In this document: positions 1,736 through 2,085 of the stretch, piece by piece
Layout: every line of letters begins with the position of its first letter
Numbering within the stretch: the stretch's first letter is position 1
Assembly (NCBI RefSeq): GCF_036507355.1
Contig: NZ_AP027877.1
From: Escherichia coli
GTDB taxonomy: Bacteria > Pseudomonadota > Gammaproteobacteria > Enterobacterales > Enterobacteriaceae
DNA length: 64,000 bases
Direction: 5' to 3' (one strand)
Program-made: the position numbers and the translations under genes
The notes under the pieces: model-generated
The model's database searches: none
Told to the model about the DNA's origin: nothing
The model's input: only the letters and a program-made list of their open reading frames with translations

Positions 1736-2085
1736 TGTCGGATGCGGCGTAGACGCCTTATCCGACCTGGATCCCCGTAGGCCGGACAAGACGCAAAGCG
1801 TCGCCTCCGGCATGGGTGCGCCGATTGTCGGATGCGGCGCAAACGCCTTATCCGACCTACATTTCCGTAGGCCGGACAAGACGCGTAAGCGTCGCCTCCG
1901 GCATGGTGCGCCGAATGTCGGATGCGGCGTAAACGCCTTATCCGACCTACACTCTCGTAGGCCGGACAAGACGCGTAAGCGTCGCCTCCGGCATGGTGCG
2001 CCGAATGTCGGATGCGGCGTTAACGCCTTATCCGACCTACACTCTCGTAGGCCGGACAAGACGCGCAGCGTCGCCTCCGGCATGG
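1736..2085. repeat. BIME/REP array: four tandem ~90-bp units of paired REP palindromes in the gabT-gabP intergenic region
   Basis: Unit starting tgtcggatgcggcg...gtaggccggacaagacgc recurs at 1736, 1826, 1916 and 2006 with 90-bp period; each unit holds inverted REP-like palindromes. Confidence 0.8.

What the first reader, a model, noticed from the sequence alone, without database searches (positions are those of the whole stretch)
1736..2085. Four tandem 90-bp BIME units between gabT and gabP
A highly regular array of REP palindromes lies in the intergenic space of the gab operon. Such arrays can act as gyrase/IHF binding sites and mRNA stabilisers, and they create long spurious ORFs on both strands. 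It is a known element class, but copy number is strain-variable and can modulate gabP expression relative to gabT.
Basis: partly seen in the sequence, partly recalled or inferred. Interest (0 to 1): 0.2.

Follow-up and report, generated by a model that had tools for sequence, protein, structure and literature searches.

The report
Expanded REP/BIME-2 repeat between gabT and gabP
The repeat is real and ordinary: a four-unit copy of a well-known family of bacterial intergenic hairpin repeats (BIME-2) sitting inside the GABA-utilisation operon, where most E. coli strains carry one unit or none.

Summary
Observation confirmed. Window 1736-2085 holds 3.9 tandem copies of a 90-bp unit at 93% match. 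It lies between gabT (2094-3374) and gabP (186-1586), both on the minus strand.

Each unit is a y-type REP plus an inverted z2-type REP with short linkers. That is the BIME-2 architecture, the same as E. coli K-12 REP325.

On the transcribed strand the array gives eight hairpins of -19 to -21.5 kcal/mol. The first begins 11 nt after the gabT stop codon. Three units score above Rfam's gathering threshold for naRNA4, but that model detects generic y-linker-z2 pairs.

The locus is polymorphic. Among 5,426 complete E. coli genomes:
- about 74% have one unit (K-12, O157);
- about 24% have an unrelated spacer without any BIME;
- 5 have two units, 26 have three, 7 have four, and at least one has five.

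Stems are invariant. Loops and linkers are shuffled between alleles, which fits unequal recombination.

This is a known element class with known copy-number variability. Any effect on the gabT:gabP ratio is untested. Interest is low.

The parts
186..1586 (-). gabP (GABA permease) CDS. The true ATG is at 1586; the mechanical ORF list extends to a GTG at 1649.
   Evidence: NCBIfam NF007566 aligns residues 22-487 of the 487-aa ORF, 1062 bits. Annotated gabP in the matching E. coli records.
1587..1674 (-). gabP leader. About 70 nt next to the ATG are conserved in every allele, including the BIME-less one. It contains the SD GAGAGG and a CCCGAC/GUCGGG hairpin.
   Evidence: Allele comparison. The fold is not better than shuffles (z = -1.25).
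1675..1710 (-). Degenerate y-like REP remnant (TGCCGGAGAGCGGCTCCGCCTTACCCGGCCAAC), in the same orientation as the array's y REPs.
   Evidence: Folds at -15.4 kcal/mol. Weak naRNA4 hit 1675-1767 at 26 bits. In allele L006 it has recombined with a y REP.
1736..2085 (.). The array as reported: four 90-bp units, each y REP, tail-to-tail linker, z2 REP, head-to-head linker.
   Evidence: TRF, the repeat finder, parsing.
1736..1770 (-). y REP, unit 1. The foot tetranucleotide is CCAG instead of GTAG.
   Evidence: hairpin -18.8 kcal/mol on the mRNA strand.
1777..1812 (+). z2 REP, unit 1 (loop AAAG).
   Evidence: -20.3 kcal/mol.
1826..1860 (-). y REP, unit 2 (5' GTAG on the minus strand).
   Evidence: -18.8 kcal/mol.
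1867..1903 (+). z2 REP, unit 2.
   Evidence: -21.5 kcal/mol.
1916..1950 (-). y REP, unit 3.
   Evidence: -18.8 kcal/mol.
1957..1993 (+). z2 REP, unit 3.
   Evidence: -21.5 kcal/mol.
2006..2040 (-). y REP, unit 4.
   Evidence: -18.8 kcal/mol.
2047..2082 (+). z2 REP, unit 4. It is the first hairpin on the mRNA after gabT.
   Evidence: -20.3 kcal/mol.
1780..1857 (-). y-linker-z2 (head-to-head) module matching Rfam naRNA4.
   Evidence: RF02564, 66.0 bits against gathering score 59.5.
1870..1947 (-). y-linker-z2 module matching Rfam naRNA4.
   Evidence: RF02564, 77.1 bits.
1960..2037 (-). y-linker-z2 module matching Rfam naRNA4.
   Evidence: RF02564, 75.0 bits.
2083..2093 (-). 11-nt gap (CACCGCCCCCA on the mRNA) between the gabT stop codon and the first REP.
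   Evidence: The same 11-nt distance is seen in K-12.
2094..3374 (-). gabT CDS; stop codon TAG at 2096..2094.
   Evidence: NCBIfam NF005985, 912 bits, full length.
1674..2702 (+). Spurious 342-aa ORF running through the array and antisense to gabT.
   Evidence: No Pfam hit above cut-off (18.3 against 25 bits).
1724..2176 (-). Spurious 150-aa ORF through the array, overlapping the 3' end of gabT out of frame.
   Evidence: No Pfam hit above cut-off (24.2 against 27 bits).

Best explanation
The feature is an expanded allele of a BIME-2-type REP cluster: alternating y and z2 REPs in inverse orientation with short linkers. It sits in the 507-bp untranslated spacer between gabT and gabP and is transcribed as part of the minus-strand gabDTP mRNA.

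Shown here:
- the anatomy;
- its equivalence to the K-12 REP325 architecture;
- the absence of an IHF site, a terminator or a sigma-70 consensus promoter;
- the polymorphism of the locus.

Inferred origin: units are gained and lost by unequal recombination or slippage between 90-bp units, possibly helped by the REP-associated transposase TnpAREP. The array is therefore mainly a selfish or near-neutral copy-number variant.

Inferred activity, from the element class only:
- On the mRNA, eight stable hairpins act as barriers to 3'-to-5' exonucleases. They protect the gabD-gabT segment and, with the long untranslated gap, favour lower gabP than gabT expression.
- The first hairpin, 11 nt after the gabT stop, falls within the <16-nt range reported to damp translation of the upstream gene. 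K-12 shares this feature.
- On the DNA, the four y REPs are candidate gyrase cleavage sites.

My estimates: identity as a BIME-2-type array about 0.95; hairpin-barrier role on the mRNA about 0.6; a measurable effect of unit number itself on gabP:gabT about 0.25.
For: Anatomy:
- TRF and repeat-finder results.
- Eight REPs parsed, each folding at -18.8 to -21.5 kcal/mol.
- Whole-spacer fold z = -9.8.
- Predicted folding energy grows by about -50 to -60 kcal/mol per added unit: -100, -150, -209, -261 for 1 to 4 units.

Class:
- BIME-2 is defined as z2+y, tandem copies, short linkers, with copy number variable between strains (PMC3333891).
- K-12 REP325, described as six Y-l-Z2 repeats (PMC4550694), aligns with the gab units. 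98% of cells are paired in both hairpins. Two compensatory changes are seen: C-G to U-A in y, and U-A to G-C in z2.
- The gab y REP differs at 1 of 32 positions from the REP oligonucleotide co-crystallised with TnpAREP.
- There is no IHF consensus in the spacer, and no minus-strand terminator or sigma-70 promoter.

Polymorphism:
- One unit in K-12 and O157, up to five units in strain D8.
- Stems are invariant while loops and linkers are shuffled. Five different 4-unit compositions were found.
- The window's spacer equals the 3-unit allele L002 plus one in-register 90-bp duplication, with 8 mismatches over 507 nt. The closest 4-unit allele has 11 mismatches.
- The same locus carries 2 units in the E. 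albertii type strain and 3 in Escherichia sp. E1V33.

Class-level functions:
- Gyrase cleavage sites are over-represented in a subset of BIME-2s, mostly in y REPs (PMC6379681).
- REPs fewer than 16 nt from a stop codon down-regulate translation (Liang et al. 2015, as summarised in PMC12306157).
Against: - No expression, RNA-end, gyrase or HU data exist for this locus or strain. Every functional step is extrapolated from other BIMEs.
- About 74% of E. coli manage with one unit and about 24% with no BIME at all. That argues the extra units, and even the element itself, are dispensable for gab function.
- Naming the halves y and z2, and excluding z1, rests partly on my recollection of the published consensus sequences. 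The primary papers (Gilson 1991, Bachellier 1994/1997/1999) were not available.
- The linker types (S, s, l, r) could not be checked, so an 'atypical BIME' cannot be excluded.
- The MFE fold pairs neighbouring REPs with each other rather than forming eight local hairpins. The structure in vivo is therefore uncertain.
Confidence: 0.85

Rival explanations
1. Copy number is a tuning knob. Each added unit progressively lowers gabP relative to gabT, through more attenuation or a stronger decay barrier, and is selected for that.
For: The array lies inside the operon on the transcribed strand. Predicted structure grows roughly linearly with unit number. Multi-unit alleles recur in several lineages and species.
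Against: Multi-unit alleles are rare: 2 to 4 units in 38 of 5,426 genomes, and the head-to-head junction in fewer than about 140. They are compositionally heterogeneous, as expected of neutral recombination products. 24% of strains have no BIME at all. There are no expression data, and no literature was found on this locus.
Confidence: 0.25
2. The array is a source of naRNA4-like nucleoid-associated RNAs. The gab transcript would be processed into 77-nt y-linker-z2 RNAs that bind HU and bridge REP cruciforms, as proposed for REP325.
For: Three hits to Rfam RF02564 above the gathering score, all on the transcribed strand (77.1, 75.0 and 66.0 bits against 59.5). The opposite strand stays below threshold. 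Both hairpins are kept. The K-12 one-unit allele has no such hit.
Against: The model also scores an unrelated K-12 BIME between phnE and phnD at 69 bits, so it detects generic y-linker-z2 pairs. The true REP325 units score 95-111 bits. The linker sequence differs. Nothing is known about processing or HU binding here. Most strains lack any such module at gab.
Confidence: 0.08
3. It is a BIME-1 / RIP-RIB type element that works by binding IHF.
For: BIME-1 elements do carry IHF sites.
Against: There is no WATCAANNNNTTR match in 1587-2093; the nearest is at 9052. Linkers are 6 nt and 12-13 nt, with no long L linker. It occurs in tandem copies, whereas BIME-1 is single-copy. The second REP is the long z2 form shared with REP325.
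Confidence: 0.02
4. The four-unit count is an assembly artefact, a mis-resolved 90-bp repeat.
For: Short-read assemblies do break at this repeat. A MAG contig ends inside the array (L020).
Against: Seven complete E. coli genomes have 4 units, 26 have 3 and one has 5. The four units in the window differ from each other at diagnostic loop and linker positions, so they are not collapsed or duplicated reads.
Confidence: 0.03

Closest known systems
BIME-2 (bacterial interspersed mosaic element, family 2) of E. coli
   Same: Alternating y and z2 REPs in inverse orientation, short tail-to-tail and head-to-head linkers, tandem copies, extragenic and co-transcribed, and copy number differing between strains (definition in PMC3333891; anatomy).
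   Different: Both REPs carry locus-typical variants. The y stem is GTCGGAT/ATCCGAC instead of GCCGGAT/ATCCGGC. The z2 stem is CCGGAC/CCTCCGG instead of CCTGAT/ATCAGG, and one stem pair is lost. Whether the linkers are the canonical S and s/l/r motifs could not be checked, so 'atypical BIME' is not excluded.
REP325 / naRNA4 (Rfam RF02564), between yjdM and yjdN in K-12
   Same: The 77-78-nt y-linker-z2 module with two hairpins, repeated in tandem and transcribed from the upstream gene's promoter. Three window units pass Rfam's gathering score.
   Different: Period 90 against 100 bp, and 4 against 6 units. The linker and the inter-unit spacer differ (6 nt against 17 nt between CTAC and GTAG). 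Scores are 66-77 against 95-111 bits. There is no evidence of HU binding or processing.
The one-unit gabT-gabP REP pair of E. coli K-12 and O157:H7
   Same: Same locus, same flanks, the same y and z2 REPs, the same 11-nt distance from the gabT stop, and the same degenerate REP upstream.
   Different: K-12 has one unit (237-bp spacer) and therefore no head-to-head y-linker-z2 module and no naRNA4 hit. The window has four units (507 bp).
REP mRNA stabilisers and translation-damping REPs (malE-malF type; Liang, Rudd & Deutscher 2015)
   Same: REP hairpins sit between two cistrons of one operon. [quoted passage not shown]
   Different: Nothing has been measured for gab. That the malE-malF and similar cases apply here rests on established knowledge of the class, not on data for this locus.

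Membership tests
REP (E. coli y / z2 types) | A 35-40-nt imperfect palindrome forming a stem-loop with an internal mismatch or bulge. | tested here: met
   Eight REPs of 35-37 nt. Each folds as two stem segments separated by a 2+2 internal loop (y) or by mismatches (z2), at -18.8 to -21.5 kcal/mol. 98% of cells are paired when aligned with the REP325 units.
REP (E. coli y / z2 types) | A conserved GTAG tetranucleotide at the 5' foot of the hairpin. | tested here: met
   Present at 7 of 8 REPs. The unit-1 y REP has CCAG. The requirement is described in PMC3479197.
REP (E. coli y / z2 types) | Sequence match to the published y and z2 consensus sequences. | tested here: inconclusive
   The gab y REP matches 31 of 32 positions of the REP crystallised with TnpAREP. 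Both halves align with the REP325 units labelled Y and Z2. The consensus figures themselves were not readable, so which half is called y and which z2 rests on my recollection.
BIME-2 | y and z2 REPs alternating in inverse orientation, in tandem copies. | tested here: met
   Four y/z2 pairs at period 90. Definition.
BIME-2 | A short S linker between REP and iREP, and s, l or r flanking motifs. | tested here: inconclusive
   The linkers are short: 6 nt between CTAC and GTAG, and 12-13 nt head-to-head. Their identity to the named motifs could not be checked.
BIME-2 | Bound and cleaved by DNA gyrase. | not testable with these tools
   Class-level evidence only (PMC6379681). The gab locus is not mentioned in that paper's held supplements.
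BIME-1 (RIP/RIB) | z1 + y, single copy, with a long L linker carrying an IHF site. | tested here: not met
   No IHF consensus in 1587-2093. Linkers are short and copies are tandem.
naRNA4 (Rfam RF02564) | Score at or above the family's gathering threshold on the transcribed strand. | tested here: met
   77.1, 75.0 and 66.0 bits against 59.5 on the minus strand. Caveat: another K-12 BIME also passes.
naRNA4 (Rfam RF02564) | A discrete ~77-nt RNA that binds HU and condenses DNA. | not testable with these tools
   Function described only for REP325 (PMC4550694).
Intrinsic (Rho-independent) terminator | A GC-rich hairpin followed by a U tract on the transcribed strand. | tested here: not met
   No minus-strand terminator-like site between 1587 and 2093.
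Substrate of TnpAREP (RAYT) | A REP with 5' GTAG, a bulged hairpin and CT dinucleotides nearby. | tested here: met
   The sequence features are present. Cleavage or recombination activity is not testable here.

The most novel reading that the evidence does not exclude
In strains with two or more units, induction of the sigma-S/CsiR-controlled gab operon would release naRNA4-like y-linker-z2 RNAs (three modules here, none in K-12). That would couple stationary-phase or GABA signals to HU-mediated nucleoid compaction, and make unit number a strain-specific dose of a structural RNA.
Probability: 0.05. Interest if true: 0.5.

Novelty: already known. Interest (0 to 1): 0.1.

Why it matters
There is little new biology here. 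BIME-2 arrays and their copy-number polymorphism between strains have been described since the 1990s.

The practical points are:
- The array generates two false ORFs, and it breaks or confuses short-read assemblies. One MAG contig ends inside it.
- The gabT-gabP spacer is a compact natural allelic series: no BIME, then 1 to 5 units. It could be used to test directly whether REP number affects intra-operon expression ratios, gyrase recruitment or naRNA-like RNA production.
- The IHF function should not be transferred to this type of BIME.

Tried and rejected
I replaced it with patterns derived from the array and from REP325.
- The RefSeq MG1655 record shows no repeat features at gab, so no REP number could be read off.
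- Liang et al. 2015, Bachellier et al. 1997 and Gilson et al. 1991 are not held. One call failed on a term of fewer than 3 characters and one on a phrase of more than 4 words.
- Literature searches combining gabP or gabT with REP, intergenic or Rho-dependent termination found nothing relevant. The gyrase Topo-Seq supplements held as text do not mention gab.
- A synthetic 10-unit query meant to rank genomes by unit number failed as a ranking, because a single subject unit is re-used for many query units. It did reveal a 5-unit allele.
- Exact allele counts above 4 units could not be obtained. The bound is 1 to about 63 genomes, from the records covered by neither class.
- An SD-sequestering hairpin in the gabP leader is no better than shuffles (z = -1.25).
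- Protein-coding readings of the two ORFs through the array were rejected.
- The source organism could not be named. Best identity to 5,426 complete E. coli genomes is 96.7-98.6%, and no GTDB species representative matched closely.

Full report
**1. The observation**

Tandem Repeats Finder reports 1736-2085, period 90, 3.9 copies, 93% matches, score 579. The repeat finder gives four in-register 90-nt copies.

The neighbouring ORFs are gabP, gabT and gabD by NCBIfam equivalog models far above cut-off. All three are on the minus strand. The gabP profile starts at residue 22 of the mechanical ORF, so the real ATG is at 1586. The untranslated spacer is 1587-2093, 507 bp. The gabT stop codon is TAG at 2096..2094.

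**2. Anatomy**

Each unit has four parts, read on the plus strand:
- a 35-nt REP, TGTCGGATGCGGCG-loop-CGCCTTATCCGACCTAC;
- a 6-nt tail-to-tail linker between CTAC and GTAG;
- an inverted 36-37-nt REP, GTAGGCCGGACAAGACGC-loop-GCGTCGCCTCCGGCA;
- a 12-13-nt head-to-head linker.

On the transcribed minus strand each REP folds into a bulged hairpin of -18.8 (first type) or -20.3 to -21.5 kcal/mol (second type). The whole spacer folds at -260.9 kcal/mol, z = -9.8 against shuffles.

A ninth, decayed REP lies at 1675-1710. The first hairpin on the mRNA begins 11 nt after the gabT stop codon.

The spacer has no match to the IHF consensus. It has no terminator-like site on the transcribed strand and no sigma-70 consensus promoter.

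Because 90 bp equals 30 codons, open frames persist through the array. ORFs 1674-2702 (+) and 1724-2176 (-) exist. Neither has a Pfam hit above its cut-off.

**3. What kind of element it is**

Ton-Hoang et al. (PMC3333891) define the two main families.
- BIME-1 is z1+y, single-copy, with a long L linker that often carries an IHF site.
- BIME-2 is z2+y, in multiple tandem copies, with a short linker S and flanking motifs s, l or r.

They add that the number of tandem copies at a locus differs between strains. The gab array fits BIME-2 and fails BIME-1.

As an internal reference I fetched K-12 REP325. Qian et al. (PMC4550694) describe it as six repeats of Y-l-Z2. It has period 100 and 5.8 copies.

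Aligning its units with the gab head-to-head modules gives 85% mean column identity. On the two-hairpin structure, 98% of cells are paired. There is one compensatory change in each hairpin (C-G to U-A; U-A to G-C), and one pair is lost in the second hairpin.

The first REP type differs at 1 of 32 positions from the REP oligonucleotide crystallised with TnpAREP (PMC3479197).

Calling the two types y and z2 follows these comparisons and my recollection of the published consensus sequences. The primary BIME papers were not available. The named linker motifs could not be checked either, so an 'atypical BIME' cannot be excluded.

**4. Rfam**

Three modules score above the gathering threshold of RF02564, naRNA4 (59.5 bits). 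They are 1870-1947 (77.1 bits), 1960-2037 (75.0) and 1780-1857 (66.0). All are on the transcribed strand, and the other strand stays below threshold.

REP325 itself scores 95-111 bits. A different K-12 BIME, between phnE and phnD, scores 69 bits. The one-unit K-12 gab locus has no hit.

The hits therefore confirm the y-linker-z2 architecture. They do not show an HU-binding RNA.

**5. Population picture**

A 1,001-bp query (flanks plus array) found the locus in 5,425 of 5,426 complete E. coli genomes. The span in each record, checked on fetched examples, gives unit number.

| Allele | Genomes | Notes |
|---|---|---|
| 1 unit (237-bp spacer) | about three quarters | K-12 NCM3722, O157:H7 |
| 2 units | 5 | |
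| 3 units | 26 | |
| 4 units | 7 | |
| 5 units | at least 1 | strain D8: 598-bp spacer, 4.9 copies |
| 263-bp variant | at least 12 | the degenerate REP has recombined with a y REP |
| BIME-less spacer (310 bp) | 1,304 (24%) | unrelated sequence |

Alleles above four units could not be counted exactly. At most about 63 genomes fall outside the main classes.

The head-to-head junction typical of multi-unit alleles covers at least 80% of the query in only 233 genomes. By about rank 140 the matches are already to other loci.

Outside E. coli, the same locus has:
- 2 units in the E. albertii type strain;
- 3 units in Escherichia sp. E1V33;
- at least 3.8 units on a MAG contig that ends inside the array.

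So the element predates the split of these species, and multi-unit states recur.

**6. How the alleles differ**

Stems are essentially invariant. Variation is confined to:
- the hairpin loops (TAAA, TAGA, CAAA, TTAA; GCAG, GTAAG, AAAG, GTAG);
- the two linkers.

These variants occur in different orders in different alleles. All five four-unit arrays examined have different compositions.

The window's spacer equals the three-unit allele L002 plus one in-register 90-bp duplication, starting within the unit-2 z2 REP or the head-to-head linker that follows it. That model leaves 8 mismatches over 507 nt, fewer than the 11 to the closest four-unit allele.

This is the pattern expected from unequal crossing-over, slippage or conversion between units. 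TnpAREP-mediated recombination has been proposed for BIME-2. It is compatible with the GTAG feet and bulged hairpins, but it is untested here.

**7. Mechanism**

Shown:
- the array is inside the operon on the transcribed strand;
- it is strongly structured;
- it lacks terminator, promoter and IHF signals.

Inferred from the class:
- The hairpins act as 3'-to-5' exonuclease barriers. They stabilise the upstream gabD-gabT segment and uncouple gabP. This is established knowledge for intercistronic REPs.
- The REP 11 nt after the stop codon may damp GabT translation. [quoted passage not shown] 2015, as summarised in PMC12306157).
- The y REPs are candidate gyrase cleavage sites. Gyrase cleavage sites are enriched in a subset of BIME-2s, mostly in y REPs, independently of transcription (PMC6379681).

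The first two features are already present in the one-unit K-12 allele. Predicted folding energy rises about -50 to -60 kcal/mol per unit. Nothing shows that this changes expression.

One-unit and BIME-less alleles dominate. The extra units are therefore most likely near-neutral.

**8. Verdict**

- It is wrong for IHF and unproven for expression tuning.
- The element and its behaviour are already known, so interest is low.
- The most novel reading not excluded is a strain-specific, sigma-S-linked supply of naRNA4-like RNAs. I give it about 5%.

Noticed in passing
L005 488-797 (E. coli CI5), corresponding to window 1587-2093: About 24% of complete E. coli genomes (1,304 of 5,426) have an unrelated 310-bp gabT-gabP spacer with no BIME. 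It diverges from the BIME alleles about 75 nt upstream of the gabP ATG. It carries a GC-rich imperfect palindrome (GGGAGAGGGCCGGGGTGAGGG...CCCTCACCC) that is itself a dispersed repeat, at a median of 3 places per genome. It resembles what I recall as 'Box C', but I did not verify that.
   Followed up: partly
L006 488-750 (E. coli THO-008); window 1675-1710: A 263-bp allele in which the degenerate REP upstream of the array is fused directly to a tail-to-tail linker and z2 REP. This shows the remnant still recombines with the array's y REPs.
   Followed up: partly
L022 401-846 (E. coli D8); L019 3893-4069; L021 11103-11369; L020 8297-8636: The same locus has 5 units in E. coli D8, 2 in the E. 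albertii type strain and 3 in Escherichia sp. E1V33. A MAG contig labelled Pseudocitrobacter, 95% identical to the window's gabP, ends inside an array of at least 3.8 units. That looks like an assembly break at the repeat.
   Followed up: partly
window 8307-8606 and 15653-15952: Two identical direct repeats 7,346 bp apart, each followed by a 167-aa IS1 transposase ORF (8557-9060 and 15903-16406; Pfam DDE_Tnp_IS1, 261 bits for the first). Between them lie a tRNA (11048-11120), a DUF5507/DUF5508 ORF and an AIDA-type autotransporter ORF that ends at the second IS1.
   Followed up: partly
window 2094-12000 and 30000-38000: The window is only 96.7% (gab side) to 98.6% (pheA-tyrA-aroF) identical to the best of 5,426 complete E. 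coli genomes. Its GabT protein is nevertheless identical to E. coli entries. The source is therefore not closely represented in that collection. It could be Shigella or a divergent lineage, and it carries two IS1 copies in this window. I could not determine which.
   Followed up: partly
window 1587-1660, minus strand: The last ~70 nt of the gabP leader are conserved in all alleles, including the BIME-less one. They can pair the SD GAGAGG with an upstream CUCUCC. The fold is not better than shuffles (z = -1.25).
   Followed up: yes
window 50117-50139, minus strand: A single z2-like REP core (TATAAGACGCGCAGCGTCGCATC) lies just downstream of the 5S rRNA gene (49936-50051). Besides two weak three-mismatch matches at 8794-8817 and 16140-16163, it is the only other clear REP-like match in the 64-kb window.
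   Followed up: no
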